This document shows, piece by piece, positions 330-32,918 of a stretch of DNA of 64,000 nucleotides. A program made the position numbers and the translations under genes. Source of the stretch: Tubiluchus corallicola (Eukaryota > Animalia > Priapulida); the NCBI GenBank assembly GCA_030141605.1, contig JAQGDQ010000123.1:434001-498000 (forward strand), given 5' to 3'. Position 1 is the stretch's first letter; each line of letters begins with the position of its first letter. Under the pieces are notes generated by a model. It searched no databases. It had not been told where the DNA came from and saw only the letters and a program-made list of their open reading frames with translations.

Positions 330-1420
330 ATAATAAAATTTCAGGGGAATACAGTAAATTTTAATTAGAACTTTCTTAAAACTTACTGGCTAAAAATTTA
401 TTTTAATTTTCTAATATCAGTAGAAAGCTTATTCCATTTTTCTGTACCAGAAGGGAAAAACCTTGATTGAAAGTAGTTAGAAATACAAATAATTAACGAT
501 AAATTTTCACTATTACGTAAATTATAGTAGGTTCTATCATAAACAGGTTCTGTAAGTATGGAAGTAAGGTAAGATGATGAAGCTCCTTTAGCAATTTTAT
601 AAAATAAAGACATTTTATGAATGTATCTTCTGTGGTGACGTGGAGTCACAAGAAAGATCTCTCAGCAATTTCTCTCCGCTTGTACCAAACACAGCTCCAA
701 ACACTACCAATGAAACATGGTACTGAATTTGTTCAACAGCTAGAGCAGTCGCTTCTGTGCAATTGTCCCAAATGCATTCACAATATTCAAGCAATGGTCT
801 AATATACGATTTGTATAACTTGTCTAAGGACCACCTATCTAAAAGAAGTTAATTTTTTGCAATGGGTCTAAACGTTTAGAAGCTCTAACTAAAATAATAG
901 CATATGAACGTTGCAAGTTAAATTACTGGTTAAAATTAAACCCAAGTGTTTATGCTTAATATAATTTCCGATTTTTGTCCCCTGAAGAAGCAGATCGGGA
1001 TGAAATGGTGGATGAGTTTTGTGAGAAAAGATAACTAATTCTGTTTTGTCTGCATTAAAGGTAACCAACCATCTCCTAGCCCATTGAGTAATACAGATCT
1101 TAGATCTTGCTGTAATGTGTTACCAGTAGCACTTGGACACTCATCTACATGTTTTATGCATGTATCGTCAGTAAGTAATCGCATATCGGACTGAATACCA
1201 TCAGCTATGTGTCTTTAATGAATATCAAAAAGAGGAGAGGACCTATACACGCACTTTAGATCAGATGCAAAACCATTGATAATTACGGATTGTTTCCTTT
1301 CTGACAGATATGAACATAACCAAGAAAGTAGTTTTTCAGTGTCTCGTTAGCAGCAACTTTTACAGAGCATCGTTAAGCAAGGGCTTACTGTACTTTGCAA
1401 TGTGGAAATTTTCACCAGTG
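330..1420 (-). mobile_element. Decayed CR1/L2-clade LINE, ORF2 RT domain and C-terminus
   Basis: Minus-strand frameshifted segments read GPLLFLIFI, DMRLLTDDTC (YADD-equivalent), KHKHLGLILTSNL, LYKSYIRPLLEYCECIW, HRRYIHKMSLFYKI and RFFPSGTEKWNKL, in the order typical of CR1/L2 ORF2. Boundaries approximate. Confidence 0.85.
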
Positions 1421-1448: not shown

Positions 1449-4400
1449 AACATTCCCAGTTATTTAAAAAGAAGCCACACTTCTGACACTGACTCTGATG
1501 TCAGCATCTCCATCAGCAGGCACAAAAAGGTGAGTTACATTGCTCTTGTGTTTTTGTCGTCTTTACTTTTATTTGTTTCATTTTTTTGTTTTTACATGTG
1601 GTGTGCACATTCTCAAAAGAGTTAGTTTAATTTGGATTAGTTGTCTGAGTTGTTGGATCATGCACCATGTTATAACACATGGCAGCGATGGGCGGTTAAT
1701 GGATTAATTGAATTAACCCCAAATACAACCATGTATAAATCATATAATTTGTAACTGAACAGTAATTCACTTAATCAACATTAATCGACAGCAAACTATA
1801 CGTGTTACACACCGACTAAAAGCCAGTGTGTTAGTACAAATAAACTCAATTTTTGTGTTTTTTTCTAATTTTTCCCACCTTACACAACGTCTACACCTTG
1901 TGCTAACCACTATGTTGGAAACTTCGTTGGCACGTGATGCATATAGTGACCTATAGAGTAGTTAACAAATGTACATGTCTATGAAATAGGTTACGAGTAC
2001 AACAATGGCTGACAGCGATGAAAGCTGTGAAGAAGTTTACAGGCTATATTTCCCTGCAATCATTGATAAATATTGCTAAAACGGTAAAAAAAGCGTCACC
2101 AAAGATTAATCGTGATATCAAATTACAAGAACAAGTTTGTAATCCAACTTCAAAATCACCCATCATTAATGCATGGTTTTCTTCCTGAGAAACTCCCAAT
2201 ACTTAACGTTCTAGAATTTTTGCAGTGTCTTTGTTTTGTAGTCTAACAAAAGGTATGGTGTATTACATGTGGGGAGAGAATTTTTAGTAATATTAAGATT
2301 ACTAGTGACTGGCGAAAACTTTAGTTCATCTTGAATAAAATTTGATCAATGGCCTCGGGTTTACCTCATTTGAGAGCGTTTACATGGAACATTGTCAAAA
2401 TTTCAAATTTTTTGAACTTAGATCTTGTATGTTTATAAGTATAAGTATGATTACAAATATATGAGCGATATAAGTTAATGAAAAAGAATATTAGCTGTTA
2501 CTTACAGTATATGACAAAAACATTAATTTCAAACTAATTTATTTCTGTTTATTGCACAATTCATGTGAACATGTCAGTAACAAGCATACAGTATCACAAT
2601 ACAATTATTATTTTCTAATGCTTGTACATTTCATGATAACAAGATGAGTAAATACATTATAATCAACGATTAATAAATGTTTATAATTATTATTACTATA
2701 AACTACAAACTTCCTGTAAAAATCCTATGTGTTTAAGAACTAACATGCGAAAATTTTGATTGCTACTGTATCAGTTTACAATTTACTTAGTAACTTTAAT
2801 TTACTATAATCTTTCATTTTGTTTTCACTTTCCACACCTGTACATTTTGATTTGTGCAGAAATACTTTTTAAAGAAACAAAGGCAAAACTAAGCTGCATG
2901 TTGTTAAATGCTGGCTTGGATTGTTTTAAACTTACGCTAACATACATACACTAACATATTACAGCCATTTGTACTAATGTCTGCACACCTTAATTGCTTG
3001 TAGAAGTCTATGTCTGTTACATTTAAGCTCTATTAACTCTATAAACACAATAAAAGTCGATTTTTTATATTTTTTGATCGCATGGCCCTGGAACAATTTC
3101 TGGTGTCATTACTTTATTTGACCAATCTGGCTCCTGTGTTTGAAATGAGTGTGCATTTACGTAACTCATTTATCAAGGTTGCCTGATAGAATCAAGGATC
3201 AAATTGCCCCAAATTTGAGATTTATAAGCTTACTGCAAAACTTTTTTGTGTTTTAATTAATTTTAAGCTGTATTCTGTTTCGTGTTTTGATTTTAAACAC
3301 AAAATTAAAATTTATAATCAATATGTTGAAAATTGTGTGGTGTGGTCAAGTTTTTTTATGTATTTGGCCCTCCTAACTTTAGAACCTGACTGCCCCTGTA
3401 TGCATAACGATAATTAGTAAGGCAGTCAAAGTACTCTTAAGTTTGAGTATGCTTACTGAACCAAATGACTATCTAGTTTAGACGTATTTGCAGATAATAA
3501 TGAATTTGATGGTTCTGCTCTCATAAGCTACAACTCTGTGCATTCACTGAGTGAAGCGTGAGAATGCTGATAAGCACATTGCTCGTTGCATAACGTAATA
3601 GTTTATTGACAGATTCACGTTTTCTAACTTAACTGGACATACTTCCTGCCATTTAGAGTTGAAAAGCAGAAACCAGGTTTTTGATTACCCATGTTCTATG
3701 TCAAGAAGAAAGGAAGAGATTTTCGAATGTGCGAAGGATGATGATGACTACGATTGTTATGACTGCATCACTTGTTTAACCATTGTTATGTTGTAAAAAC
3801 GAGGAAAAAGGTTTTAGGTGGACAACATAATAAATATACTATAGCAGAAACAGTTCAGAGTATTTTCACAAAAGAAAAATAAAGATGTGAAAATATGTGC
3901 TATAATACTCTCTGAAAGTCTACGTGTGTATCCTACTAATGCAGAAGTGTTTGGGCACGCAAAGGAAGTTTTAGTAAAAACTGTTTTATATGCATTGTAT
4001 AGCACATATGGAATCGTAGATATGGTATGCCACGCATGTGAGAGAGGCCAAGGTTATTGTTAAAAAGTGTGGTTATTTGATTAAACATGCAGGTAGTATA
4101 ACTGAGATCACTGCTATGATTGAGTGCAGTGTTGAAATGCTCCCAGATGATCCAGCTTTGTCTTTGTTTTTTGGTTCACAATCTGACAACATTTCTGGCT
4201 TGAGGTCGAGCACACGTTTCTCGCGGAGCTTCTTGGGCGAGTCACAGACGCCAAGGTCGCTGCCCTGATAATCTCCTTCGTTAAGCCAGACGGTTTCTCT
4301 CAGCCATCGTAATCGACAGTCACATTCAAAAGGGTTTCCTGATAATGAGTGAATGTGTTGTTAAAAGATCTAATGTTATAATTATATAAAGACAATTGTG

Positions 4401-7400
4401 TGTTTCCCTATTAATAAGTTTCTGGGTTGCTACTGGATAATGTGCTAAGTATTACAAAGGGGCCATCCATACATAACGATATCAAGTTTTCGGCCGATTT
4501 GGAGGACTATCCTACCTTATGTTGTAATAGTGTTATCATATGCCCCACCACCTACCTACCTCTTATATTGATATCGATGTAGTTTTTTGTACATTTTATT
4601 CTTTCTCCTCCCAAGGACATTCAACAACATCACTGTTGTTAATTAATGAGAAACCATCAGTGGGTTGCGTCATTCTACTGGCACTGCTACTGCTGCTGGC
4701 ACACACGTGTGAAAAAAACATGAAGTCAGTTAACAATATCATGACTAAATCACCTACTTACCTTTAATTTACCTTTACCTTTACTTTACTTACCTATTTA
4801 CATTATGTTATAATGGTGTTATCACATCTCATGTCATCTACCTCCCTAAACTTGATATCGTTATATTTGGATGGCCCCAAAACAGCAGTGTAGTGGCAAA
4901 ACTTTGCACCCACCCTCACAGCCCCAGTATCTGCTGGGAAACCCATCGGTTGGAGGGACCCTTGGCTGTGAAGAAGAACTGGTAAAGCATCAAAGTAATG
5001 CATAATTTTCCAAAACTTTAACAATTTTGTCAACGCGAAATTCTCAAGGAAAAATTAAAGGCAAGTTATGATGTTTTTTGACCGATCTTAAAAATTGTGG
5101 TACATTCGATAGGCCTCAGACATTTTTACCTAAGTTTAATGATTTGTGGTCCACTGGCACTACTTTTGCAGGGTGACCCAAACATACAGTTATGCTAATA
5201 CAGAGCTACAGTGCAGCACAAACCACATATGTGCAGTGAATCTTAAATATGTATTTGGCACAACTACAATATGTTTAATATAAGAATGTAAAGAAAACAA
5301 AAAACTGTTGGTGGTGATTGCATTAGGCTAAACCACGAGTTTTTGTAAATTATATGTACAACTTATAATTTAAAATTAGATGGGCTGTATTTTTTATATA
5401 GCCTATACCCTCATTGACAGCCATTACACCCTCAAGCCTCAATGAGTTATTCTGTTTTGTAAAAATAATTGTCAATTAATATTGTGTGAAGAAATTCCAC
5501 CTAGCTGTGAGATGAACTTTTAATTTAATAAATGATAGAACTTCATAATGAAACTTCAAAATTTGCTATTACTTGATTTTCTTGTACTTGGAGTTACATG
5601 TACTTACTGGTTTTTTGTTATTATTGTTGTTGTTGTTATCGTCACCATTATTGTATATCTTATATCGTTATCATTATCATTATGGTAGTACCAGTAGCTG
5701 TAGCATAATAGTTGTCACTCACCATATAGCAGCAGTAAAACGTTTTTTGTCTCAACATTTTGATGAAATGGTATGTAGTCAATATTTTTTATGCCATTCC
5801 TCGACAGATCAAGCTCTTTTAACCTCGACAGTGAAGATAGGTCCAACTTGAAATGCTGAAGCTTGGCAGCTGTAATTTTGAGTGATTCCAAGTCCCTTAG
5901 ACTTAAAAATGCTTTTGGGTGTATCTGTGGGAGATTGGTTGCCTTTATTATAAGATTCGTAGCGTCAAGACCTTCAAAGGTTTTCTCCTTGATTGCCATC
6001 AAATTTCTTGCCCTGAGTTCTACATGACGGGCCACTATTCCCTTCAGAAACTTCTTGGGAAATGTAGCATTGGGGTTGTTGTTGGTGACCATGAGTTTGT
6101 AGACAGGCCGGTCGATCTCGCTCACAGCTGCTTCGAACTGTGTGCTGTCATGGTAGATGCAGGCAACGTGTGGACATTTTTCTGTGATGGCCACCCTTGT
6201 TCCAAAGCTGCAGTGACACTGTGTCATTTTCGGACATCCGGAGTACTGTGAGCAGTCTTCAGCATGGCACAGGAGTAATAAAGTCGACATCACTAATAAA
6301 AACTCTGTACTCAAATAATTAGAAGGCATTTTTCAATTAAAGTAGTCAGAGTTTGCTATTATTTGCCACTTAAATATTTCCTTTCTCAAGTACACGAACT
6401 ACTGGCCACTACTGCATATTGTAGCAAATTAAGCTCTGAGAACAGCATTTTTTCAGGTAGTTTGATGGGTGTTGGCAGCACAACAGGCCTAAAATGTGAA
6501 TTAGTGGCAGCCCTTGCAGAAGTTTTCCATTACAGTATTTCGGCTGTTGACACATTATTTCTCATCGTAGGCTGTCACCTTGGTGATGCCATGCTCATTA
6601 TTTGCATTGTATTTGGTGTTGGTCATCTTCCCACCCCCATCACAGTTTCTTTGGCCCTGTACCGGTTTAGTGTCAAACCTCAAACTTTGTTGTAGTTAAT
6701 GCCCCAGAGACATTTTTAAAAACCAGTTGGCGTGAGCTGTTCAGCCTCTGCTAATGTTTAATCCTATAATTGTAAATATTGGAATGCAAATATAAGATTA
6801 CAGCTGAGATGATATGAACCATAAAAACTCTGTTTGACCAATACATTCTCACGTGGGCTAAGAAAAACAACGGCACCCTATCAGCACTGCTTGCATAAGA
6901 TGATATTATTGGATTAAGCAATGGAGAAGCACTTGTTAATTATATTTCTGGGAGTTTATTACATAGGCTGTTAGAAGTCCTGTTTGGAGGAAGTAAAAAA
7001 TAAAAGTTTGATGTAAAAGATTAACTTTTTTGTGATAAGTTATGGTTCTAATACTTCTGTTATTTAAGAATTGAAGAAATGTCCTAGATAGCTCTATTAT
7101 TGAATAACATTTTATCATTATCCACCAATGCAAGAATTAAACTGTTAAGTTTATATACGTGTGTGTGTGTGTGTGTGCATGCTTGCATGTGTGAGGGTGT
7201 GTGTGTGTGTTTGTATATGTATATATACTGGTATTGGCATATGAATTTCCTTATGTTTTTGGACAGGTATAATTGATATTAAAAATGTGTTGTTTTAATT
7301 TTATAATATTAACTTATAATCACTCAAATTTAATTGACTTTGGTTTTGTTTGTTTTGTTTTCAGTTTTGTTTATTGTTAATTTCAGTCTCATTTAATGTA

Positions 7401-10400
7401 AGCCCAACGATGGTGATTACATCGTTATAATTATGTCAGTTTGCTTTTGACCATGTATGGTAATTACATGCCATGTTTTGTTACAGATTCGAGGTTTAGG
7501 CTCTGGACGTAGCACGCCATCCTCAAAGTTCAGCAAAGCTGAGTCAGTACTGCGTGAGGGGCCGAAATGGGATCCCGAACGGCTGACGCTTGAAACAAAA
7601 TTCGTAATGGGTGCTAAAGCAAATAAGTGAGCAATAATTTTAATATTAAATGTTTTGCTAATGATATATACAACGGGTGGTGTGGGTCAATAGTACATGT
7701 GTCTCAGTTCTTAGCTGCTATGGACTCCTGTGCTTTTTGGATTCCTTTAGTTCTCTATCATGGTTATTTTCCAACATTTGGTTTTTATTTTATGGGACTG
7801 TGCCGGTTAAAGGCAAATTATATATTTATGAGTCAAGATATAATTTTATGTGAAAACAGAGATTTTGCTTAGTTTTTGTAAGTGACTATGGCTTTTCATT
7901 CTTGTTTTTATGCTAATTTAGTGTAATAACAAGAACGAAAATTCACAATTTTCTTGAGAGCCTAAAGTCTTCGATAAAACTGCATTTTTACTGACCAATT
8001 TATCAAGCAGAATTCCTAATTTTGATTATTCAATAGTGTAGAGAGTGTGGTGGAGAGCCAGTTCATGTGAGCAATAGTGTTGCAGTGCAGTGACAAACTG
8101 CCCCTTCCCCCCCCCCCCCCCATTAAAAACATGAAATGCCTACTTTATGTTTGGAATATTTCAAAATGTCATAAGAATTTAAGTACTGTACTTAAATCTT
8201 CATCGCCAAGTGATATTAAAGATAAGTTGTGTCTCTATTTTGCAGAGTAATGTTTGTTCACTGTTTTACAGAGCATTAGGTCTTGGTGCTACTCGTGGTA
8301 GATTGTACATAAAACATCCAGATTTATTTAAGGTAAGTAATTACTACTTAAACTATGCACAGTGATCATAAGTAGCGAAACAAAAAAAGAAAAGGAAAGA
8401 TGCAAAAGGTGAAATGTGACTGGTGCATCACAGAATTCACGGGCAGTTTTTTTGGTCCCTAATTCTTTGAACTAACGTGTTGCTTAGGTTACAAATTGCT
8501 GTGTTATTTACTGAGTGGAGACCATCTTTAACTGCTTTACTCGTTATGATGCTGAATCCGGCAACTAGCGATGCCACTTCACGATAAGAATATTGAAAAA
8601 ATCAGCAGCAGTTTGTTTGACGATTAACTTCGCTACTCCAAGGCCCTATTATTGTGAATGCACTATTACGCATCTTCTTTGTATGCCAATTTACTGTCAA
8701 AATAAGTAATGTAGTATAATATAAACTATCTTATGCATAATTGACCTCCTGTTTGTCAATTGCAGAATTAACTGCTGAAAGTGGACAATAGGTCCTACTA
8801 ATTTTGTTATAGTGACTGCTAATCATTAGCTCTAAATTAGTTTTGAAAAAGCATTTCTTGTGCAAATTATTTTTAAAAATACAAAAAAAATGAGAAAATA
8901 ATAACATAAGAAAATGTAATATCTCACCACAAATAAATAAGCTTTTCATAAATTTGTTTTTTTGTGGTATTTGCTTCACATGTTGCTGTGAAATACACAC
9001 ATATTTAAGGTTGAATATCAGCAGTTGTTTCCTGTTTAGCTATAACTCGGTTAATTTTAACTTTAGTATTCAGGTGATAGTGAAGACAAGGTGTGGTTGT
9101 ACGAAAATAGGTTGATGCCAGCAACGGGTGGAAGAGCCTATCTCTTGATAGAGGAAGATATTTATGATTTAGCTGAAACAAATGAATACAAGTAAGTTTT
9201 CATACAAAGCCTTTCACAAAATTCTTTCTGAATTATGTAAGTATGGAGTGAGTTGTTTCCATAGTCATAGATGCTTTGCTGAAATCTGTTCATTCTCGCT
9301 TATTTGTCGTAACGTGAGTACTGATAGCTGCATCAGCTTGAACACAGTTGAGATTGAAGTGTTGGTGTGTTAACGTGTCAGTGTAGTTGAGTGATAGTTT
9401 TAACATTTTTTTGTATTAATCTGATGCAGCAATCAACATTGATCATAGCTGCAAAAGATGGTTAAAAGGCTGATACTCACGTTAACAAATCATTTTAATC
9501 AAATTAACAAACTATATGTTTAAGAAACAATCATATTATTACTATGTTAGAACAGCAACACATATTTATTTCTATTCATTTGATCATAGCTGCAAAAGAT
9601 GGTTAAAAGGCTGATAATCACGTTAACAAATCATTTTAATCAAATTAACAAACTATATGTTTAAGAAACAATCATATTATTACTATGTTAGAACAGCAAC
9701 ACATGTTTATTTCTATTCATTTAATTCTGCTAATAAGTTTTTGTCGTATTTTATTCACTTATAGTTATAACTTGATGTCTATGTTTGAATTTGATATAAC
9801 ATATTAAATAACCGTAAAAGATGTGAGAATGCTAATATATTTTCAAGCTAATTTCTGCATTAAAGACACATATATAGATAAAGATAGCAAAATCATCTCA
9901 AATTGTAATCTTCTACCAGAATCTGTAGTTGTTTGTGGTGGCGATTCAGTGGTGTCTTTGGTGTATTCTGTCGTTTCCTCTTCCTCTGTCGTCGGGTTTC
10001 CAGTTGGCGGTCTGTATGGATTGCATAAGTCTGCTGCATTCAGTTCATCGAGGCTTTGTCCGCTAAAATGTGGTGGCTCGGCACAAGTTCCAAGTTTAGT
10101 TCCCCAGCCCCAGGTAGTGTTAACCAGCCAGGCCAGTTCACACGAACAGTTTAATGGATTGTCTGAAAAATTTTTAATATATTATAGGAAACTTAAAGAT
10201 TGCACAAGTCTTCGGTAGTTAAGTCGTCAAGACTTTGTCCGCTCAGATGAGGTGGTGCAGCACACTTTCCAAGTCTGGTACCTCCTCCCCAGGAAGTGTT
10301 AATGAGCCAGGCTAGTTCACACAAACAGTTTAAGGGATTGTCTGAAAAAGTTTAATGCATTAAACCTGGTTATTGTTGTCCCGAATTTTTTGGAAAGCAA

Positions 10401-13400
10401 AATGATGAGTGTACATTATATGATTTCAATCTCATGGCTGTTCAGTAAAATTAGTGCTAAGTAATATTGTATGAAAACACTGTTTTGCACATTTTAATTC
10501 TACTACTGTGTGTACTTTCAGCCAAATTTTAGGAATTTTATTGATGTTATTCTTTTTTTCGTTTAAAACAGCTGTTTGTAAGAGTTGGAGTTATGTAATG
10601 GCATTTTTTCTAAGATTCACCATCAAGATAACCCCTAAAGCTTATCAAGTTTATCGTACCTGATTAGTCACTTGAAAAGTTGACTGTTTTTAGGTGATCA
10701 ACATTGCACACTTTCGATGCTATCTATAATTTGCGTTGTTCAACATTAGTGTGACTGCTAGGCTATTTAACACTTAAATTTCACTAGAATAAGTGGGAAT
10801 CAAAACAGAACAGAAAGTTATTGTGCTAATTGTGTCATTTGGCAATATTAAGTTGATTTAACAATAAGAACTTACTACTCAAGTCTAGCGTTATGGCTTG
10901 ATATTCGCTTCTGCTTATAATGGAATCTTCGTCTAATGTTTTTATTAGATTGTTGCTGAGGTCGAGGCTTTCTAGTTCTTCTAGTCCGGGATCGTCGAAG
11001 ACTCCGCGTTTTATATGCTCAAACTTGTTGTAAACCAAGCTAATTATTTTCAACTTAGTGGTTTTTGCAAATGTGCCAGATTCCAATGATGTCAGATTGT
11101 TCTCACCTAGAAAAAGCACAGTGAGATTTTGCAAGTTGTCCAACGCCCTTTCCTCAATTGTGTGGATCTTGTTGTAGTCCAGATAAAGTGCGAACAAACC
11201 TGATAAACTTCCAAGTGTGTTTGCCTGAAGAGTTGTAATGCCATTGTAGCACATCCACAAGTTCTGTACGCTGCCAGGAATTGAAGGTATCCAAGAGGCA
11301 ACATCCGTTATTGCGTTTTGACTTAAGTCAAGTGTTATCAAATGTGGAAGTCCTTCAAAGCTCTCACTTGCAATTTCACTTAAACGATTACGTCTCAAAT
11401 ATAGATACTGCAATGAGGAAATATCAGAAAAGGCATTATTACTTATCTTAGTTAGTTGTTCATTGTCTACAATTTCTAGTGTGGTTAGTCCTAGTTGTGC
11501 AGAAGAATGTTTGAATGCTCCACTGTTGAGTTCAGTTACATCTGTTCTATTCACTCGTAGTTTCTGTAAAGAGATCATACTTTCTAACATGTTATCAACC
11601 AGCTTTGGCGAGTAGTGAAACTCACTGATGATAAAGGTGCCAATCTGTAACCGCATTGTCTTTAACGTTAATCTTAGTGGTTCATATCCCATCCATTCGC
11701 AGAATATTGTTGATTGACCGCCGGATTCTGTACATACACATCGGTCATTTGGTAATTCATGTGGACATAAAGGCACATCTACGCAATCATGGAAACATGG
11801 CCAATAGCTGAAGGTTATTTGTGGCAGCCATGCCGACAGTATAACACAGACTGACAGTTTTACAAGTTTCATAATTTTATGTAGAGTACCAGACGTTTTC
11901 ACTAATTTTATAACTGCTTCCTTCCTAGCTTCTTATGTCAGCTTCTGTTATAACGGCATTAGTATTTACATTACAAATACGCCCTTTGCTTTACGTTAAT
12001 GTAACATGTATTTATCATTCTTGCGTAAATCATCACATTTTGTTTACAAACTACGTCACATTCTGACACATTTATCACGTCAGTAGAAGCTGATTCTGTA
12101 CTGACACACAGTCCAAAGACCATGTTAGAGTATCAGGTACAGTGTAACTACATGTGTCTACATTGCACAATATTTCACGTTGCAAAATATGGTTGACTAA
12201 AATTAGGTTAAATGCAACTACTTAACCATGGTTATGGAATTATTACAGTGAAATTTCAGTCTTTGCTACACTGTTTTGGAGCCAGAGAACATGTCAGTAA
12301 AATGAAAAAAGAAATGACTTCCGATGCAGTTTTTATCTCTTGTTTGCAATTCTTTTGTTATTAAGTAGTTCTCTTCAGGAGAAAGGGAGACTTCATGATG
12401 ATCAGATTATTTTATATATCAACTTCCCCCTCCAGAATTCCCACACATTTTGACACGGTTTGACTACATAAGTGTCTTTTTAAATAAATTATTATTAACT
12501 ATTGTTGATTAAGAAATAAATATATAGTCAGTTACTATTTCCTGACAAAAATGTTTCTGTGTAGGAATAAATAAGTAGTCGGTTGGTATATCCAGACAAA
12601 TGTATGTTTCTGTATGGATCAAACATGTTTGATAGATAGAAATTTTAAATTGAGCAAGTAGAAGAAAATGTTTTCTGCATACAATAAAAAAAAACCAATC
12701 AGTTGTCCTTGAAAAATGTTTTTCTTGCACCCTTAAAACTACTGTTTCCTGTGAAACATAACCAACTCAGAATTAATAAAAATGTTATAGAGGGACGTGC
12801 TTATAGAGCACTATAAAAGGTGGTCGGTGAGCCGGGCATCCAGAGCTCCAAAGTTGTGTGTTCTAAGCAACATTCGCATGTTTTATTTAATTACTGTTCA
12901 TGAATAATTGCGTATTCACTTATCAGATTTTGATAAAACCAGAACCAGAGGACAAAAAAACAAAAGAACAAAAGGGAAAGCTATTTGATCCATTTGGTAA
13001 TTGGTAACATTTAGGGTTAGACTGTTAGGGCATTCCCACAATTTAAAGGTTATAAATCAGTAAAGTTGAACAGCCATATATATCACATATAATTTTATTT
13101 TGGCGTGTCTTCTGGTACGAGTATTGAACACATTTATATAACCATATTTTTATTATTGCCAGAGACACAAAAAAATAAAACCTTTGGCCACAGCAAGCAC
13201 TGATAAGAAGGCCTCGGGAAGAAGAAATGGTATACAGGTGGTTAACTATTGAAGATCAAATACATAGAAATAGATTAATATACGATGAATTACATACATT
13301 AGTAAACGTAAATAAGCTAAATGTTGAAGATGGCATCAGTGTTTAAGTTGTCAAGATTTTACTTGATAAGGCGAAGTAGTTTGCCATGCATTCCATATCT

Positions 13401-16117
13401 AGTAGTTTTTCCCTAAGAAGTGTTAATAAGCCAGGTTAGGTTAAATTATGGCTTTAGTGGGTTGTCTGAAAAAGTCAAAATCCCTTTTGATGAGCTTCAA
13501 AATGACAAGAGTACATTACTGTAATATCATGTAAATGTTAACTTAATCGCTGAAAATGTTTTCAGAGTGAAAGACAGTCGTCACTGCCTATTTCTACTAC
13601 CTCTTTTACTAGCTTGTAGTAGGCTAGTAGCATCCCACTGGTTGGAAAGCTTAATATAAAATGATTTATGATTGTTGTTCTTTGGTCTACTGCCCCCCCC
13701 CCCTCATTGGCTGTTTGTGATTTCCAATGACCTCTGCTTCCAAGTGAATTACAGTTAAACTTGCCTCATTGCAATTGCAGCCAGATGACAAGTTAAAAGC
13801 CGCACCTTGTTCCTTGCGTGCATTGTATAAAAGCAAAATTTTCAATTTCCCAACTTCAAAATACCAGTATCCTTTCAATCACACTGGCCTGATATACTAC
13901 AAAGTTTATTTTGCATTTTGCATATTTATGCATCAAATATCACTTTTATGCTACTAGCTGTACTACTGGCTCAAATGCCTTGTCTGTGAAAATGGTCTAA
14001 AATTGCTTAGAATGTCATGGCAGATCAAATAACTGGCCTGGAATTCATACATCTTGTTAACAAACATTGACACGAGCACATCCTTGAGTTTGACCTGCAT
14101 GTACTCATATCCTGGTATGGTTGTAAAAATGTTCAGTGTAATAAATGCATTTCATCTTGCGATGCCACCCTCAGAGCCTAGGAATTGCCATAATACAAAT
14201 GCTTTAACAGAACAAAAGGGAGTCAGAGATCAAATTCATACTGTATTTATTACATTTAAACAGCTTTTTTATGTGGGTCATGTATTTTTCTTAAAAACGG
14301 TTCCATGAATATTTGTCACAGATTTCAGTTTGCAGACTATTCCAAAAGTTAGTACCCATTATTTTGAACATGCTGTTTCAGTTTTTCAGTTCTCAGATTC
14401 CATTTTAGAGAACAAGGGCGTTTGTGGTCATCCCTTTAATCCTTTTTTATTATAATAACCAGTAGGCTTTAAAAGATCCCAGTAATACGGTATTTGTATA
14501 ACCTGACTTCTGCTGAGATTTTAACAATACCAAGTAGTGCACTAGCTGGTTCTAGAAATGTTCATTTAGATGTCCTTGGAACCTGCATACTTGTGTGTGA
14601 GGTCCTTTTGCCATTTTCTGTCATGCACAGTATGCAGCATGGCACCTAATTAAGCCTTTAGCAGTGTTATATATAATTATTATTATTATATGTACTAAAT
14701 AATTCAGAAGTGTGCCTTGTATGCAAAAACTGATGGGATAAAAGCTTTTATGCACAAATCAGGTACACTTGTTTGCTTTAAAGTATACATGTACTATTGT
14801 CAATATTAATCTTGAGTTTCAATAATGGAAGCACAAATTATCATTATTTAGTTAATTAAGCATTTTGCTGGAATGCTGGAAAATTCGGAACTTCTGCTAA
14901 TGGAACGTCTTTTCAGAAATCAACCGGGGCTGATGTTAAATATACTCAAAGGTTTTACCGTGCCTGAATTCATGCTGTTAAAAATGAAACTCCATATGGA
15001 AGCATTGCGCACAGACCGTAACAAGTCCAGACAGGGTCACGTTGTCTCGGATAAACTAGATGCTATAAAGGTATGGCTAACTGGATGTCGTTACCAACAC
15101 TCAAAGGCTGATATGAATTGCAGATACCATATACCGGAAAAAATGTGAGCTAAAGTTTTGCGAATTCAACTTCAAACATTGTTTGTGCAGTGATATTTTT
15201 AGCACAGCCTTGCGAACATTACAACGAGAATCTCTGCAGGGAATTACATGTAATAGTAATAAAAATAAGAATTACATATAGTAGTTGGAATTACATGTAT
15301 TACCACATTGCTAGTTGCCCTGATCATAACAGACCGAGAGTGAAAAGTGCTAAACTTATCTAACAGCTAGTACTAGCATTTACTTATTAAATTTATGTGC
15401 ACAAAAAACTTATAGTTGTTTGAAAAAAGAGCAAAATTGGAATTTTTGTTTTGTAGACAGTGTTTTCTAAAATTTTCGGATTTACCATCAAACAAAGCCA
15501 ACGTGTTGCTACAAATTATTATTAGAAAGCACAAGCATCAACTTAAGTACTAGTGTAATTTATGTCTGACTTTCCTCGCAAGTATTTCTAGCACGCACTA
15601 ATTTTATGATTTCAGTAGATTAGTGACCAGCTGATTTGAGTGCTCACTAGCTGACCACGAGTCAGTTGCTTATTACAGATATACTTGCTCAACTTTTTAA
15701 GCAGATCTTGTGAATTTATTTCTGTGTAGAAATTTACACTGTCCATTACTGATTTGATTGCTCAATAACTGAGAAAATTATGATCTTGTGCTACCTGTTG
15801 ATGCAAGATCCACTCCGTGAATTTATTAAAAAGTAATTTAATTGCATAAACTGTGGCTTATAGCTTACCTGTTTTAACATTGTTTTGTTTTACAGCCAGA
15901 GTTAGGAGAAACATATGAAGAAGCAAACAGTGAGACTGGTAAAGGGGATGTAGCTAGCTCCGGTCCCACCTCGCCAGTTACCATGGAAACATGTTCTACC
16001 CACAATCCATCGCCTCTTGGAGAATTTGCTGATTTAGAAGTACCCAGTCCAACAGTAATGTCTGATCTGGGACTAAATGATGGTCAACTATCTGCTCCTT
16101 TTGATGTAAATGATTAA
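1449..16117 (+). CDS. DNTTIP1: Deoxynucleotidyltransferase terminal-interacting protein 1 (MiDAC subunit), 5' exons not identified in the window
   Basis: Phase-consistent GT-AG exons 1449-1529, 7487-7626, 8272-8332, 9067-9191, 14917-15070, 15896-16117 (TAA). Spliced product contains REGPKWDPERLTLETKFVMGAKANKALGLGATRGRLYIKHPDLFKYSGDSEDKVWLYENRLMPATGGRAYLLIEEDIYDLA...FTVPEFMLLKMKLHMEALRT, matching the conserved DNTTIP1 C-terminal domain as I recall it. First and last exons are low-complexity and less certain. Confidence 0.92.
4073..6329 (-). CDS. Nested LRR gene 1: signal peptide, Cys-rich N-cap, LRRs, LRRCT, putative GPI-anchor tail (~290 aa)
   Basis: Exon 1 6329-5723 (MPSNYLSTEFLLVMSTLLLLCHA-EDCSQYSGCPKMTQCHC...LKELDLSRNGIKNI...LLLYG, donor GTGAGT, phase 1). 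Exon 2 4338-4073 after a TATCAG acceptor: GNPFECDCRLRWLRETVWLNEGDYQGSDLGVCDSPKKLREKRVLDLKPEMLSDCEPKNKDKAGSSGSISTLHSIIAVISVILPACLIK-stop. Minus-strand AATAAA near 3602-3607. Lies inside DNTTIP1 intron 1530-7486. Confidence 0.9.
4459..4878. mobile_element. MITE with ~31-bp terminal inverted repeats (Zator- or PIF/Harbinger-like)
   Basis: Left GGGGCCATCCATACATAACGATATCAAGTTT, right AAACTTGATATCGTTATATTTGGATGGCCCC; AAA on both flanks; no coding capacity. Superfamily is inferred only from the GGGG termini. Confidence 0.8.
9440..9721. repeat. Near-perfect 141-bp tandem duplication
   Basis: TGATCATAGCTGCAAAAGATGG...TTTATTTCTATTCATT occurs at 9440-9580 and 9581-9721 with about two differences. Confidence 0.95.
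9843..10162 (-). CDS. Nested LRR gene 2, distal terminal exon B: LRRCT, Thr/Pro/Glu stalk, hydrophobic tail (membrane/GPI form)
   Basis: TTTTTCAG acceptor, phase 1: (N)NPLNCSCELAWLVNTTWGWGTKLGTCAEPPHFSGQSLDELNAADLCNPYRPPTGNPTTEEEETTEYTKDTTESPPQTTTDSGRRLQFEMILLSLSIYVSLMQKLA-stop. Confidence 0.88.
10193..10341 (-). CDS. Nested LRR gene 2, proximal terminal exon A: LRRCT only (secreted form)
   Basis: TTTTTCAG acceptor, phase 1: (N)NPLNCLCELAWLINTSWGGGTRLGKCAAPPHLSGQSLDDLTTEDLCNL-stop. All four LRRCT cysteines retained, no indels relative to exon B. Confidence 0.75.
10876..11872 (-). CDS. Nested LRR gene 2, exon 1: signal peptide, Cys-rich N-cap and about 10 LRRs
   Basis: First ATG at 11872 (MKLVKLSVCVILSAWLPQITFS); N-cap YWPCFHDCVDVPLCPHELPNDRCVC; LxxLxLxxN repeats such as LQYLYLRRNRL, LITLDLSQNAI, LFALYLDYNKI, LTVLFLGENNL, LESLDLSNNLI; GTAAGT donor after ITLDLS (phase 1). 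Lies inside DNTTIP1 intron 9192-14916. Confidence 0.93.
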
Positions 16118-18760: not shown

Positions 18761-21700
18761 TCATTCCAATGCGAATATACTTTGTCTCGCTGTCATCATT
18801 CGTTGTCGTGCCCGTGAAAATTTTTCTGCAACAAACGTTTAGAAAAACGATTTTAAATTTAGATTAAACATCTGTCTAACCCATTAATTCGACAGTCAAT
18901 TTGAGTCATACCATAAAATATTTGGCCTACAATACTGACAAGAACAATACTTATTTACAATCAGCAGTACGATAAACAAATTACCCAGTACAGTACAGTA
19001 CAATATAGCAAACAAATTGCTCAATTACACATGTCCTGTTGGGCCAATAATTGCCCAGTAAGTTGTTTCCAAATATGTAAGAGGAACATCAAACTTCTGT
19101 TGCCCGTCATATACATAACTAAAAATAAAATTTGCTTTAATAATTCTGATACTTACGGAGTGCAGTGATAATTCCTTCTTGCACCATACTGACCCTAAAA
19201 CAGGATGAAAAATTTTGTATGAAAATTTCTTAATAAAGATGAATGAAAATTGAAAACCCTAACCAATGTAAACTTGTCTGACTATTTTGTAATTTGTCTG
19301 TGCCAAAATTTAACACATCTTGTTATAACGCCAAACTCGCTATAATGCCAACTTTTTCTGGGTTCCAAAATCGACGGTATTGACTAGGTCATTTTTGAAA
19401 AAAATATGTTTCCTTTTAATATTTTATATGCTAGATCATTTTGAGCTGTGGTTCGACATTGGCTCCAGCTTTCTTTTAAAGTTATGACATACAGATGAGA
19501 AAACTAATAATACAGATTTGCCAAGTGACAAACAGGCAGACATGATATGCTGTTTTAACCACAAATTTTAGTAAAAAGACCTACCCCAACTTATCCACCA
19601 ATGATGCAAATGTTCGTTTTCGAGATTTTGAATCAAGAAAGGCACGAGATTGTTGGATGATGTTCAGCTTAATCTTCACGTTTCCTGTAGATTCAGTTTT
19701 GAATCCAAATTTACTAAGTCGATTGCCCTAAAACAAAATGCTGTTATTTGTTTTTTTTTGAATAGCATAATGACAAATTCACATTATTATGCTACACAGA
19801 ACCCCACATAAGAGGGAGAGGCGATGACTAAATTGACGATTAGAATAAAACTTTCCAGAGGCCATTCTGGTTGTTATGGTGTACCAGATTAAGGGTTACA
19901 CTGCAGAATGTGGGAGTGCATAAATAACAGACTGACAAACAGATCGATTTTCATCTTACACACGCAACCACCCATCCACCCACCCATGCATGCACACACA
20001 CACACACACATAATATACATTTAATAAAATTCAGGGAAACTACCTGAAACTCAGGGAACTACTTATGAATAGTCATTAGCAAAAATGTATATTAGTTTCT
20101 TTTTAACTCTAATCCAACTTTACAATTAAGCTTTTATGTAATATTAATTAGGATATTTGTTTTTTATATTGATTATTTTATAGTTTTTACTTCTAATTTT
20201 CGTTTGTAAACCGTGCAAAGAAAACCTCATGTGGACTGCACATGTAATGTATATATATATATATATATATATTAATTTTTAATATAATATAGAAAGTAAA
20301 TCAAATCGATATGTCTCGATAATATTTGCATTTTGCATTTCGACCTAATCGTTATTCTTAATTTGCAATCAGATCATGAGCTAAGCATTTCTAAGATTTC
20401 CAGTTACGAAACTAGATGAGATATGACAAACCTCAAAAGTGGATGGCACAGCAATGTAAGTCGGATCCTCTAACTCGGGTGATCCACCAATAAAAAACCT
20501 TCGAAGCTCGTCATTTATTGATCGCCCTACTGGCCTCCATGTATTAATCACTCTAATATTGCATCCTAAAGATAAGAAAGAGATATTTGGGTCACAATGT
20601 ATTTCAAGGATACATTTTGTATTATGCGTGACACGATTCATTGATATTTATTAGTCGAAAATTTCATAATTGCTTAAGTGCTTAAAAGCGTAAGGATTAT
20701 TATGCTTTCAAGTTTTAGCTTTGGAGGTGAGAATTAGAATGTTAGCAACAGCAAATCGCTAAAAAGGTATAACTAATTGCTATCAATTTAGCAAGCCATC
20801 GAATGGTTTATTTCCGAATTTAAAGCAGTTTAGCACATAGTAACCTTTTACGTGACATTATACATGCCATAATAATTAATTGCAGCGTGAAAATTGCAAT
20901 AGAATACACTGCGGCAGATAGTCGTAACACTTAAAGGAAAACAGGATGATTTTTCATATCCTACCTCATTTTGAAGTACGTAAAAAGTGCTACTGTACGA
21001 GACTCAGTGTGATGTATTAAACTATGCAAGTTTTAAGATAAAAATTCAAATATCAAATTTATGCTCACCACGAGCTCTCAAACATGTGCACTACATCACA
21101 AACGAACACACCCGAACTAAGAGATACAGCACCAGTTATTTTATGCAACGCGTTTCCGAAATGCAGGTGCTAGTGCTGATCTAACCAACAAATGGCAAGC
21201 TGCATGTAAACAGCAAAGAACTTGCTGCACAAGCAAAATTGCATTTCATTGGTAATTATTCTTTCATGAAAGTCATTCTTGAAAAAATAGTGTGTTTCTT
21301 TTCAATATTTTAAACAGTAGATTGTTTTCAGCTACAGTTTAAGATCGAATACAGTTTTCCTTTAAGGCAGCTCTCATACAGTCTATTATTAGTACTAAAA
21401 TTCATGTTTGAGCTTGGGCAATTATAGTCTAAGCCTCATAGCCTCAATAGTTTGAGAGAGATAAAAATGATTTTTTTTTGTTGGTCCAATAGACCTCAAG
21501 CCATTTAAGTGAAGGACACACCTGGTGAATGATGGACACAGGCGCCAAAAGTAGATTTTACCGATAATGCTTTACCAGGCTTCACTAACCTGGTTCAGTG
21601 GGGAGTGATATGTATCCATAGCCTTCCGTTCGATATCGATGCCACATATCGAGAGACAAAACTTCAAGAAAAAGCTGAGGCCAGCCATGAATTGAACTGT

Positions 21701-24700
21701 CTGCACTATCACCTTCTGCAAGGTCATTCTTGTAGAACAGCTCGCATTCAAATGGAAATCCAAAGTGTGACACATTGGAAGTTCCAACAGTTGTAGTAGA
21801 GCAAGTTTGTGTCACCCACGACTGCTGACAAGATGCGTCAATTCGCCACACTAATAACAAAACCATAACTTGCATTACACTAGTTGCTGCTTAATAAAAC
21901 TGCGAATAATAAAACCAGCCACATTTCAGAAGTGTTTAGCCATGTTCCGGCATTACACCCACAAGTTGTTGCCGAGAAACTATTGTTGAGAAAATTCAGT
22001 TAATAAAAAAGTGCACAATTTAATAAGATCACATTTTCAGTAACAGACAACAAAAGGAATAGCAAAATGAAAAATAAAATGTATTTTTTGGTATTTTGAC
22101 TATTTTTATTAAGCCACACAACTACTTAGTCAAAGTCACATTGCAAGTTAAAAGTCAATTGTTTCGTCATAATCACTCTGTAGACTGAAGTACATTTTAG
22201 TCGAGAAACTATTGTTGAGAAAATTCAGTTAATAAAAAAGTGCACAATTTAATAAGATCACATTTTCAGTAACAGACAACAAAAGGAATAGCAAAATGAA
22301 AAATAAAATGTATTTTTTGGTATTTTGACTATTTTTATTAAGCCACACAACTACTTAGTCAAAGTCACATTGCAAGTTAAAAGTCAATTGTTTCGTCATA
22401 ATCACTCTGTAGACTGAAGTACATTTTAGTCTGTTGAATGAACTTAAATCACTGTTTTATGCTTGAATCATTCTGCTGGTATCCAAGTGAGCTGACTACC
22501 CCATGTTTAGTTGTCATGTAGTATAAATTACGTTGAAGTGTTTACGTATTGTACTTAGCACCACATCATAAAACCACCATTTATTACGACCACATATTGC
22601 TGGTTCCGTGGTGGTTTTATTAAGTGGCGGCTACTGTATTCAATAATGTACCTCAATTGTGTGGACAATCATGTTTGCAAGATATTATTAGATTCATAGC
22701 AAACAGGACTTTTGTGGCATTAGAATTTTTTTAAGTGAATTAATCACGAAACATGAATCTTTATACATACTTTGTGGCAGTTCCAGAAAGCAATGAATGT
22801 ACAGGTTATCATATTCATAGTCTTGAGCTGAAATAATCTCTCCATAGCACAGCAACCGCAGCACTTTTGGTGGAGGCTATAATTTTAACAAAATTGTTAC
22901 CTATTGAATTAACATTTTGCAAATATATGTATGCAAAACTGTGCTGTACACATTTAAAGAGAAAAGAGTTTTCAATAGTTTCGAATTGCTAACAGCTCAG
23001 CTATTGCAGAGGTCAGATTGGCAGAATTGCAAAAAGTCTCAAAGGTAATCTGATATAAGCCCTTTATCTTCGTGATAGACTTCCTCATTTCCAAAAAAAG
23101 AAACAAAATATTGTGTGATTATGATCAAAATACAACAGTTGCCGCTTAATAAAACCAGCTGCATTTTACAACCATTTAGCCCTATTTGGAATTACTCTCA
23201 CAGAAACCATTGTTAAGAAAATATGGTTAATAAAACCAGTGTGCCATTTAAGAAGACTATACATTTTTCAGTAATAAGCAGCAAAAGCAATAGCAAAATG
23301 AAAAAATAAATGCATTTTTGGTAGTTTGCTTATTTTTTAAGATATGTAGTAGATTCAACCCTTTTTAGTCAAAATCACACTGAAAGTTAAAGTCGATTGT
23401 TTCATCATAACTGGTCTGCAAGTACAGCCAGTAAAATACATTTTAATTTGTTGAATAAACTTGAATCACTGTTGTACATTTGAGTCTTTCTGTAGGCATG
23501 CGAATGAGCTGTCTGCTTTCAGAAGCTAACCAAACTAAGTATCCACACTCATTTTCTTAAATCATGGTAAATTAATTACTAAATTTCTATCTTGGGAAAT
23601 TGAACTGGGACCACCAGCACTTGAAAAAAAGAGGAGCTGACTGAAAAATATAGCACATGATTTGTGACGAACAGCCGATAACCAATAAAGTTCTGAACTG
23701 CCCCCTGGAAACTGCAAAATATCCCAAAATTTTGATCTGCGGCTCTGAAACAAGATTGCTGTTGTGTGGGCTTAGCTTGTCATTCCATCAGCGCATGTAA
23801 TTTAAATCAAATATGGTGATTAAAGTTTCATTTAATAATATGTTTGCAGACGTTTACTCTAACTATAACCTACATTATACGCAATCAAAATTAAAAATAC
23901 ATTCAGTTGTCTACACTATACATGACCAAAATGAGAAATACATTTAGTTACTTTTACAGTATAATTTACTAATAAAGAAATATAAAATGATTTCTACTTT
24001 GTATGAAAATCACGGAAATACAGAACGTACCATTTCAAACTGAGATCCGACACATGCTTGAAGGAAATCAGTGTGCCGATCATAAAGCTCTTGATACATT
24101 TTATTTTCTTTGTCTTGCTCCTGGTGGCTAATTAACTGAGACACATTCTCCAGTGAATATTCAAACACATCTAAAATATGGAACGGACCAATTAAGAAAA
24201 GAGTTGTGATTTTTTTGCTTTTTACTGCAATGACGCACAGAAATTTAACCAGTCTTAGTCTAGCTTTCCATCAGGTAGTCAGGTACCCGAGTAATTACCC
24301 GCATTGTTTATTACCCGAGCCTAATATTTCTAGCCAGTTTCAACAATGAAAATGCGACATTTTTTGTAGTACGATATCCATACTACAGTTTTTTTAAACT
24401 AACATTTACGTAATATTAATTCTAGTATTTTTGTGACAATGCTCAAGTAAAAAGATCATTTTTAAAAAAGATCATGAATAAAGAAGAAACCCCAATTAAA
24501 AAATATTAAAAAATTAAAAAATAATTAATAATGCATTATTTGTCCTAAAGGAAAATACTGTGAGAGGATACCTTTTCCCAGTGTCTCTGTTTCCACTACA
24601 TAGGGTTTTTCACCATGACTCAAATCTGGTGATATGGAGATCACCCCTCGAGTATCAACTTTAATGGTGCACACGAGATATTCATCTGATAAATATTTCT

Positions 24701-32459: not shown

Positions 32460-32918
32460 GTAAGTTACGTTGTTTTTGCTGCGTATGGGATTATTCGTTA
32501 TTACGAATTTGTCCCTCAAATTTAAATTTTGTGGGATTATTGGAATTTTGATAATAAAGTTAATATTAGTACTTTTGACTTTGTAATTTAACTTGTCTAT
32601 CGGTATACTGCGCGAATTTGAACATAGTTCGATAATTTAATTAGGTTTGATTTGTTAATAATGTATAAGATTATAATGGTCTTCAAATTTGTCTTGTTGG
32701 TGGCTTAGTTTTCGTTAAAGTTATTGTCCTTTCGTTAGGCTTTCTGGTTTGCAGTGTGTATGGGGAGCTGTATAAAGGAAGTTCTGTTTTCCAAGCTATA
32801 TTATCCGGTATTATTATCATGTTTCCTTTATAGCGTTTTTTTATGAAAACTATTATTATCCTAAATAGCATTAAATATAATTACTTTGGTTTTTTATTAT
32901 TTGTGCTTGTAGGTAGCA

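What the first reader, a model, noticed from the sequence alone, without database searches (positions are those of the whole stretch)
9843..11872. LRR gene with duplicated alternative LRRCT exons: predicted secreted versus stalked membrane isoform switch
Seen: one phase-1 donor (10875) is followed by two paralogous exons, each with a TTTTTCAG acceptor and a complete four-Cys LRRCT. Exon A (10341-10193) stops two residues after the last Cys. Exon B (10162-9843), 30 nt further on, continues into a Thr/Pro/Glu stalk and a C-terminal hydrophobic segment with no cytoplasmic tail. The copies differ at many synonymous and conservative sites (e.g. CLC/CSC, GGGTRLGKC/GWGTKLGTC) yet have no indels. Established: SP-LRRNT-LRR-LRRCT-Thr/Pro stalk-GPI is the architecture of agnathan VLRB, and membrane/secreted switching by terminal exon choice occurs in immunoglobulin heavy chains. 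Inference: acceptor choice yields a soluble or a surface form of the same LRR solenoid, with a slightly different cap, possibly in an invertebrate recognition or immune system. Shared architecture does not establish homology to VLRs.
Basis: partly seen in the sequence, partly recalled or inferred. Interest (0 to 1): 0.85.

Follow-up and report, generated by a model that had tools for sequence, protein, structure and literature searches.

The report
Duplicated cap exon: anchored or secreted
An invertebrate leucine-rich-repeat gene carries two conserved copies of its last coding exon, which likely let splicing choose between a predicted lipid-anchored surface protein and a predicted secreted one, a known trick reached here by exon duplication and unrelated to lamprey antibodies.

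Summary
One phase-1 donor (10875) is followed by two paralogous LRRCT exons: A (10341-10193), which stops after the cap, and B (10162-9843), which adds a stalk and a GPI-like signal.

A relative's protein (88% identical) shows the exon1>B junction. No exon1>A junction was found, but A is under purifying selection (A/B dN/dS 0.11-0.18). It took 31 nonsynonymous changes while A took 2 (p=1e-7). So A has been conserved as a tail-less exon, and alternative 3' splice-site choice giving secreted versus GPI-anchored forms is the best reading (about 0.7).

The VLR/immune framing is not supported. The gene is complete in the germline, has no LRRCT insert and no cassettes. Its nearest look-alikes are Connectin, LRRTM, ALS and Nogo receptor. 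It lies antisense in a DNTTIP1 intron. An intronic site complementary to both exons was not above genomic background.

Verdict: a new variant of a known kind (ACHE-type acceptor switch; PGRP-LC-type duplicated 3' cassettes). The ligand is unknown.

The parts
10876..11872 (-). Exon 1: predicted signal peptide, Cys-containing N-cap and about 10 LRR strands, ending in phase 1 one base into the codon before the N-P of the LRRCT
   Evidence: (LRR_8 E=1e-38)
10342..10875 (-). Intron from the single donor GTAAGT (10875) to acceptor A (534 nt); to acceptor B it is 713 nt
   Evidence: donor position supported by an 18-nt loose end of an RNA-like contig and by P0001
10193..10341 (-). Exon A: four-Cys LRRCT plus stop; predicted secreted isoform, 382 aa
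   Evidence: purifying selection; junction not observed
10163..10192 (-). 30-nt spacer carrying acceptor B; homologous to the intron tail upstream of A
   Evidence: 18 of 22 aligned columns match
9843..10162 (-). Exon B: LRRCT (10160-10020), Thr/Glu/Pro stalk (10019-9924), GPI-like signal (9923-9846: D-S-G, basic spacer, hydrophobic end, no cytoplasmic tail); 439-aa isoform
   Evidence: junction and tail type present in P0001
9706..9755 (-). Two AATAAA candidate poly(A) signals downstream of exon B, which both isoforms could share
   Evidence: untested
13317..13465 (-). Copy C: dead paralogue of exon A upstream of exon 1, with the same acceptor and the same terminal stop position, 3 internal stops and 0 of 4 Cys; serves as an internal neutral control
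10742..10776 (-). Intronic stretch complementary to homologous sites in exons A and B (candidate docking site; NOT above genomic background)
9067..9191 (+). DNTTIP1 (host gene) exon 5' of the intron that holds the LRR gene
14917..15070 (+). DNTTIP1 exon 3' of that intron; the LRR gene and copy C are nested antisense in intron 9192-14916

Best explanation
The gene has one LRR-encoding exon and two duplicated, conserved cap exons, and splicing likely chooses between their acceptors to make either a predicted GPI-anchored, stalked surface protein (B) or a predicted secreted one (A). SHOWN: the anatomy; the exon1>B junction in a relative; protein-level constraint on A since it split from a dead copy that already ended at the same codon. 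INFERRED (origin): a tandem duplication of intron tail + LRRCT made a first copy that runs into the duplicated intron tail and stops. Both acceptors were kept. INFERRED (splicing): the choice is exclusive by construction. With acceptor A, exon B becomes 3' UTR of the same last exon, so no extra poly(A) site is needed and exon-junction-dependent decay is avoided. B is probably the main form. INFERRED (function): both forms present the same concave LRR face. The anchored form acts as a cell-surface adhesion or recognition receptor, and the soluble form as a diffusible binder or decoy for the same ligand. I put adhesion/matrix/signal modulation at about 0.55 and microbial recognition at about 0.4.
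For: Junction and tail: P0001 (Logan, 392 aa, 1552-nt contig, 88% identical) joins exon 1 directly to a B-type cap, stalk, DSGRR motif and hydrophobic end. An RNA-like contig about 10% diverged leaves exon 1 at the predicted donor and continues 8 nt that match A or B at 7/8 and the intron at 2/8. Selection, A vs B: 18.5 synonymous and 12.5 nonsynonymous differences, dN/dS 0.11-0.18, Fisher p=6e-6. If A were neutral, P(Nd<=observed) is at most 0.003 in all 8 simulation settings. Selection, dead copy: synonymous/nonsynonymous changes by branch are A 4/2 and C 8/31. The relative rate of nonsynonymous change gives p=1.3e-7, and of synonymous change p=0.39. Age: A differs from P0001's cap at 14 of 47 residues and B at 5 of 47, so the duplication probably predates that species split. 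Ancestral layout: the neighbouring LRR gene has the same phase-1 intron and a single cap+GPI-type exon. Fold: the AlphaFold model (pLDDT 81.6) is an LRR solenoid with the cap folded at the end and a disordered stalk.
Against: No read, contig or protein with the exon1>A junction was found, though no listed run holding this stretch was on record as RNA. P0001's contig runs unbranched through the B junction, which suggests A was minor or absent in that sample. The signal peptide and GPI signal were judged by rule and hydropathy, not by SignalP or NetGPI. The dN/dS numbers rest on 47 codons. Constraint shows past function, not current expression. No ligand or tissue data exist.
Confidence: 0.7

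Rival explanations
1. Exon A was a functional alternative exon until recently but is now silent or vestigial, and only B is made.
For: Only the B junction is observed. Copy C shows that copies at this locus are born and die.
Against: A keeps its acceptor (9 of 13 upstream positions are pyrimidines, against 7 for B), all 4 Cys and an open frame. It is unchanged in a second haplotype or individual. It has only 2 nonsynonymous changes on its own branch.
Confidence: 0.14
2. The switch is real and serves immunity: a VLR-like innate recognition receptor with a secreted agglutinin or opsonin form. This overlaps with the best explanation and differs only in function.
For: The gene is lineage-restricted: apart from P0001 no hit is above 36% identity among the best 150 of 1.84 billion representatives. 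There is local birth-and-death (copy C, a second LRR gene). Crab VLR2 has spliced forms with and without a TM segment that bind bacteria (PMC10045472 passages). Amphioxus FrLRR is a GPI-predicted LRR phagocytic receptor (PMC10199209 abstract).
Against: Atlas look-alikes are Connectin, ALS, Slit and chaoptin. Structural neighbours are LRRTM2, chondroadherin, LGR4, LRIG1 and Nogo receptor. There is no cassette array in the window and no LRRCT insert. The listed X2 differences do not show faster protein change than in the host gene DNTTIP1 (7 of 18 vs 4 of 8 changed codons nonsynonymous).
Confidence: 0.3
3. Exon B's tail is a short transmembrane or aggregation segment rather than a GPI signal, so the switch is TM versus secreted, or between two secreted forms.
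For: No GPI predictor was run. In hagfish VLRB a hydrophobic tail drives both GPI anchoring and multimer secretion (PMC6050320 passages).
Against: The best 19-residue hydropathy window is only 1.37 in B (2.09 in P0001). It lies at the very end with no cytoplasmic tail. A small-residue D-S-G plus basic spacer 26-27 residues from the end is conserved while the hydrophobic residues vary, which is the usual GPI-signal pattern (recalled).
Confidence: 0.1
4. Exon A is a neutral duplication remnant or an assembly artefact.
For: Its stop is a natural by-product of duplicating intron tail + exon.
Against: 23% divergence from B excludes a collapsed or duplicated-read artefact. A public contig spans both exons. 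Neutrality is rejected. Copy C shows what a real neutral remnant looks like here.
Confidence: 0.03

Closest known systems
Vertebrate ACHE 3' alternative splicing (AChE-H/T/R)
   Same: One donor with proximal and distal 3' splice sites in the terminal region decides between a GPI-anchored and a non-GPI C-terminus, with a soluble read-through form (PMC5388418, passages read).
   Different: The ACHE alternatives encode unrelated tails. Here each alternative re-supplies a folded domain, the LRRCT cap, from a duplicated exon, and the proximal exon is the tail-less one.
Drosophila PGRP-LC, pip and CG42235 duplicated 3' variable cassettes
   Same: Tandemly duplicated, mutually exclusive terminal exons joined to a common donor (PMC6191721 abstract, sections 5 and 14; PMC9013439 passages).
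   Different: Those cassettes vary the recognition or catalytic domain, not anchoring, and their selectors are conserved intronic elements. The candidate pairing here is exonic and not above background.
GPI-type 'LRR-only' extracellular proteins: Connectin, OMgp, human nyctalopin, Nogo receptor
   Same: The SS-LRRNT-nLRR-LRRCT-GPI layout (PMC2235866 passages). Connectin is the top Atlas look-alike at 0.96. Nogo receptor, LRRTM2 and chondroadherin are among the top Foldseek hits.
   Different: Only 20-27% identity in the structural matches, and orthology was not tested. A duplicated cap exon is not described for them in what I read; that survey kept one isoform per gene.
Agnathan VLRB
   Same: Signal peptide, LRR solenoid, Thr/Pro-rich stalk, GPI site, and both surface and secreted forms (PMC6050320, PMC3308329 passages).
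   Different: VLRB is somatically assembled from cassettes, has an LRRCT insert and its only intron in the 5' UTR. In hagfish one C-terminus drives both surface display and secretion. None of this applies here.
Eriocheir sinensis 'VLR2'
   Same: An invertebrate LRR gene whose splice forms either have or lack the membrane anchor (PMC10045472 passages).
   Different: Its nine short forms lose parts of the LRRNT, LRR and LRRCT. Here the soluble form keeps the whole solenoid with its own complete cap.

Membership tests
Agnathan VLR | Incomplete germline gene with a non-coding intervening sequence in place of the LRRs | tested here: not met
   All LRRs lie in one uninterrupted germline exon; definition from PMC3308329
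Agnathan VLR | Flanking LRR donor cassettes | tested here: inconclusive
   None in the 64-kb window apart from one other complete LRR gene and one dead LRRCT. VLR loci span about 2 Mb and no genome is held
Agnathan VLR | Only intron in the 5' UTR | tested here: not met
   Phase-1 coding intron before the LRRCT
Agnathan VLR | 48-65-residue LRRCT with a variable insert loop | tested here: not met
   47-residue cap. It aligns to SALM/LRFN caps with a 2-residue gap and is 4 residues shorter than amphioxus Bf66946
Agnathan VLR | Thr/Pro-rich stalk and hydrophobic GPI tail | tested here: met
   Stalk has 11 T, 6 P and 6 E in 32 residues; hydrophobic end. By composition only
Agnathan VLR | Somatic assembly in lymphocytes | not testable with these tools
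   Unnecessary for a complete germline gene; the host looks like an invertebrate
Extracellular LRR-only, GPI class (Connectin/OMgp/NgR architecture) | Signal peptide + N-cap + LRRs + LRRCT, no Ig/FN3/TIR domain | tested here: met
   Pfam finds only LRR families; model; signal peptide by hydropathy only
Extracellular LRR-only, GPI class (Connectin/OMgp/NgR architecture) | GPI attachment | tested here: inconclusive
   Rule-based pattern conserved in P0001; no predictor or assay available
Connectin orthologues | Phylogenetic grouping with Connectin | not tested
   Only Atlas feature similarity; no tree built
Mutually exclusive duplicated terminal exons | Homologous tandem exons with the same phase and intact acceptors | tested here: met
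Mutually exclusive duplicated terminal exons | Both junctions expressed | tested here: inconclusive
   B seen in a relative; A not seen; no RNA run holds this stretch
Docking-site/selector control (Dscam, PGRP-LC type) | One site pairing competitively with each cassette, conserved with covariation across species | tested here: inconclusive
   A candidate exists, but 37 of 229 genomic tiles pair as well; no second species' intron available

The most novel reading that the evidence does not exclude
An invertebrate recognition receptor has independently evolved a receptor/antibody-like duality. One LRR solenoid is issued either GPI-anchored or secreted, each with its own separately selected C-terminal cap that tunes ligand binding. 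The choice is set by an intronic docking site pairing competitively inside the two duplicated coding exons, and shifts on infection.
Probability: 0.07. Interest if true: 0.78.

Novelty: new variant of a known kind. Interest (0 to 1): 0.46.

Why it matters
If true, it is a compact example of how one short tandem duplication (acceptor + cap exon) creates a secreted isoform of an anchored LRR receptor at a stroke. A dead sister copy 3 kb away dates the event and proves selection on the new exon. It is directly testable with two junction primers. It does not bear on the origin of VLRs. GPI-versus-soluble splicing and duplicated 3' cassettes are each known; the new part is that the duplicated unit is a structural cap.

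Tried and rejected
Expression and genome: no whole genome is held. No RNA holder was listed for the stretch, which says nothing about expression. X2 had no contig on exon A or B even at 80% likeness, which is uninformative.

Searches for an A-type protein or locus found none: exon A against longer proteins (8 candidates, 0 scored; it also missed P0001, so it is weak); P0001 against 1.84 billion representatives (only itself close among the 150 listed); metagenome scan (174 pattern hits, 0 confirmed); DNA pattern scan (116 loci, 0 with a tblastn hit).

Docking-site hypothesis: one intronic stretch (10742-10776) pairs with A (-29.3 kcal/mol) and B (-30.5), and poorly with dead C (-16.0). The intron-A helix is in the MFE and centroid folds with pair probabilities near 1. 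Against shuffles the alignment score is reached in 6 of 2000. Against real genomic tiles it is reached in 22 of 467, and by energy in 37 of 229 tiles run out of 233. The whole-intron duplex was not significant (18 of 300 shuffles for both exons; 128 of 233 tiles), the whole-region fold z-score is -0.11, and the neighbouring gene's longer intron scores about as high against its own exon. Kept only as a lead.

Other splice routes, rejected by inspection: splicing A onward to B or to B's stalk (the stop precedes any GT, and the 30-nt spacer is too short); read-through from A into B (179 nt is out of frame).

An IgH-type poly(A) switch is not needed. The ATTAAA in the spacer (10178) has counterparts at 10356 and 10155.

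No exon-1 or exon-B remnant was found around copy C. The single-sequence AlphaFold model failed (pLDDT 40.8). The phylum could not be fixed: DNTTIP1 exon hits are chelicerates and a limpet at 61-76%. Four look-ups of earlier scan findings returned nothing.
Full report
OBSERVATION. The minus strand carries a 997-nt coding exon (11872-10876) ending in phase 1 at GTAAGT. Two exons follow, each beginning after TTTTTCAG: A (10341-10193) and B (10162-9843), 30 nt apart. Their first 149 nt are 115/149 identical without gaps. Exon 1 is LRR (Pfam LRR_8 E=1e-38). Both caps match LRRCT weakly, below the Pfam cut-off (E=0.009 and 0.022), and match LRRCTs of solved structures weakly. A contig from a public run spans both exons with 3 differences, none in A and one E>Q in B. 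That run may be the source sample, so it shows that the arrangement is real, not that it is fixed in the species.

CONTEXT. The gene sits antisense inside an intron (9192-14916) of DNTTIP1, whose exons were mapped by Pfam TdIF1_2nd and tblastn. DNTTIP1 hits are chelicerates and a limpet at 61-76% identity: likely an invertebrate, phylum not fixed. A second, distantly related LRR gene (6329-4073, minus; best 28% over 94 aa) has the same phase-1 intron one codon before the cap's N-P and a single cap+GPI-type exon. This suggests that exon 1 + B is the ancestral layout. The spacer before B is homologous to the intron tail before A, so A arose by tandem duplication of intron tail + cap and was born without a stalk (inference).

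IS B USED? P0001, from a 1552-nt Logan contig and the only close hit among 13, joins exon 1 straight to a B-type cap, stalk, DSGRR motif and hydrophobic end. A contig from a run guessed to be RNA (it skips a GT..AG DNTTIP1 intron) matches exon 1 at 89%. It then continues with 18 letters that read as the exon-1 end plus 8 nt matching A or B at 7/8 and the intron at 2/8. It confirms the donor but stops before A and B can be told apart. Its residues differ from P0001's at several sites, so it is a third sequence.

IS A USED? No direct junction was found. The indirect evidence is strong.
(i) A vs B over 47 codons: 6, 6 and 19 differences at codon positions 1-3; Sd 18.5, Nd 12.5; dN/dS 0.11-0.18 for kappa 1-3; Fisher p=6e-6. 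In simulations with A neutral and B constrained (8 settings, 1500 accepted runs each) P(Nd<=observed) was 0-0.003 and all four Cys survived in 1-3%.
(ii) tblastn revealed a third copy, C (13465-13317), upstream of exon 1, where it cannot be spliced to this donor. C has the same acceptor, 96/149 nt identity to A and 81/149 to B, and shares 21 sites with A against 6 with B. It has three internal stops, none of the four Cys, and a terminal stop at the same codon as A. With B as outgroup (7 three-way sites left out), the A branch has 4 synonymous and 2 nonsynonymous changes, and the C branch 8 and 31 (Fisher p=0.035). Relative-rate p is 1.3e-7 for nonsynonymous and 0.39 for synonymous changes. So A was already tail-less when C split off and has been held at the protein level since.
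(iii) A differs from P0001's cap at 14 of 47 residues and B at 5 of 47, placing the duplication before that species split if P0001 is the orthologue.
The caveats are the small numbers, and that past constraint is not proof of present expression.

PROTEINS. The N-terminus looks like a signal peptide (best 11-residue hydropathy 2.37). An AlphaFold model of P0001 on a 25-sequence alignment (pLDDT 81.6, pTM 0.80) gives an LRR solenoid with about ten parallel strands, a folded cap, and low confidence over the stalk and tail. B's tail has D-S-G, a basic spacer and about 12 hydrophobic residues at the very end (best 19-residue hydropathy 1.37), with no cytoplasmic part and no Cys. This is the GPI-signal pattern as I recall it; no predictor was available. 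A has no hydrophobic segment (0.57) and would be secreted. Unspliced read-through would give a third, cap-less product (ORF to 10835), untested.

MECHANISM. The best model is alternative 3' splice-site choice in the terminal exon. With the proximal acceptor, A is translated and B becomes 3' UTR. With the distal acceptor, A is removed with the intron. Exclusivity needs no special device. I tested for Dscam/PGRP-LC-type control, because one intronic stretch about 100 nt after the donor is complementary to homologous sites in both exons. It folds with A in the predicted pre-mRNA and beats shuffles (6 of 2000), but not real genomic sequence (22 of 467 tiles by alignment score; 37 of 229 by energy). 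It remains an unsupported lead.

COMPARISON. It works like ACHE, where proximal and distal acceptors set GPI versus other C-termini (PMC5388418, passages), and like the duplicated 3' cassettes of PGRP-LC and pip (PMC6191721, abstract and sections 5 and 14; PMC9013439, passages). Its architecture is that of Connectin, OMgp and human nyctalopin (PMC2235866, passages). The Atlas ranks Connectin first, sequence search of the PDB ranks ALS, LRRTM, LRIG1 and LRRC15 well above VLRA, and Foldseek ranks LRRTM2, chondroadherin, LGR4, LRIG1 and Nogo receptor first. It is not a VLR by the features in PMC3308329 (passages): the germline gene is complete, there is a coding intron, there is no cap insert, and no cassettes lie in the window. 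Hagfish VLRB gets its surface and secreted forms from one C-terminus (PMC6050320, passages). Splice forms with and without an anchor are already reported for a crab LRR gene (PMC10045472, passages), and a GPI-predicted LRR phagocytic receptor for amphioxus (PMC10199209, abstract), so an immune role is possible but not indicated here. Searches for a duplicated-LRRCT secreted/GPI switch found no such report in the open-access library; subscription papers and supplements were not seen.

VERDICT. The feature is real and well supported, and probably a functional soluble/anchored switch (0.7). It is a new variant of a known kind. Interest 0.46: the anatomy is neat, has a built-in neutral control and is easy to test, but it is not surprising in principle, the VLR link fails, and the ligand is unknown.

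Noticed in passing
window 4073-6329 (-): A second LRR gene: SP-LRRNT-LRR exon (6329-5723), a phase-1 intron at the same position, and an LRRCT + GPI-like exon (4338-4073). It lies upstream of the mapped DNTTIP1 exons and is possibly also nested antisense.
   Followed up: partly
window 13317-13600 (-): Dead copy C of exon A, with weak homology to about 150 nt of the upstream intron; no exon-1 or exon-B remnant is detectable nearby.
   Followed up: yes
window 7487-15070 (+): DNTTIP1 exons (7487-7626, 8272-8332, 9067-9191, 14917-15070); the 7627-8271 intron is seen spliced in run X2. A putative earlier exon at 1449-1529 was not confirmed.
   Followed up: partly
window 9439-9720: A 141-bp near-perfect tandem duplication just downstream of the gene, covering a poly(A)-signal region. 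It is absent from the X1 contig, so it is an allele or an assembly artefact.
   Followed up: partly
window 21585-21890 (-): B9-domain (ciliary basal body) exon, Pfam B9-C2 E=2.6e-19.
   Followed up: no
window 21966-22423: A 229-bp tandem duplication, 99% identical.
   Followed up: no
window 34515-34698 (+): LITAF-like zinc-ribbon exon (Pfam E=1e-8); a Pro-rich ORF at 32913-33491 may belong to the same gene.
   Followed up: partly
window 40314-41751 (-): Ras-family small GTPase exons (Pfam Ras E=1e-10 for 41473-41748).
   Followed up: partly
window 50661-52110: Dispersed imperfect repeats of about 80-100 nt at about 140-nt spacing, possibly a helitron- or MITE-like element.
   Followed up: no
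window 59141-60529 (+) and 398-1119 (-): Broken ORFs that look like non-LTR retrotransposon reverse-transcriptase fragments (by eye; not searched).
   Followed up: no
window 62163-62983: Degenerate 58-nt tandem repeat array.
   Followed up: no
window 22036-23402 vs 27429-27717; 29907-30194 (-): Long imperfect inverted repeats about 4-5 kb apart, and a short ORF resembling a transposase DNA-binding fragment (by eye); probable DNA-transposon remnants.
   Followed up: no
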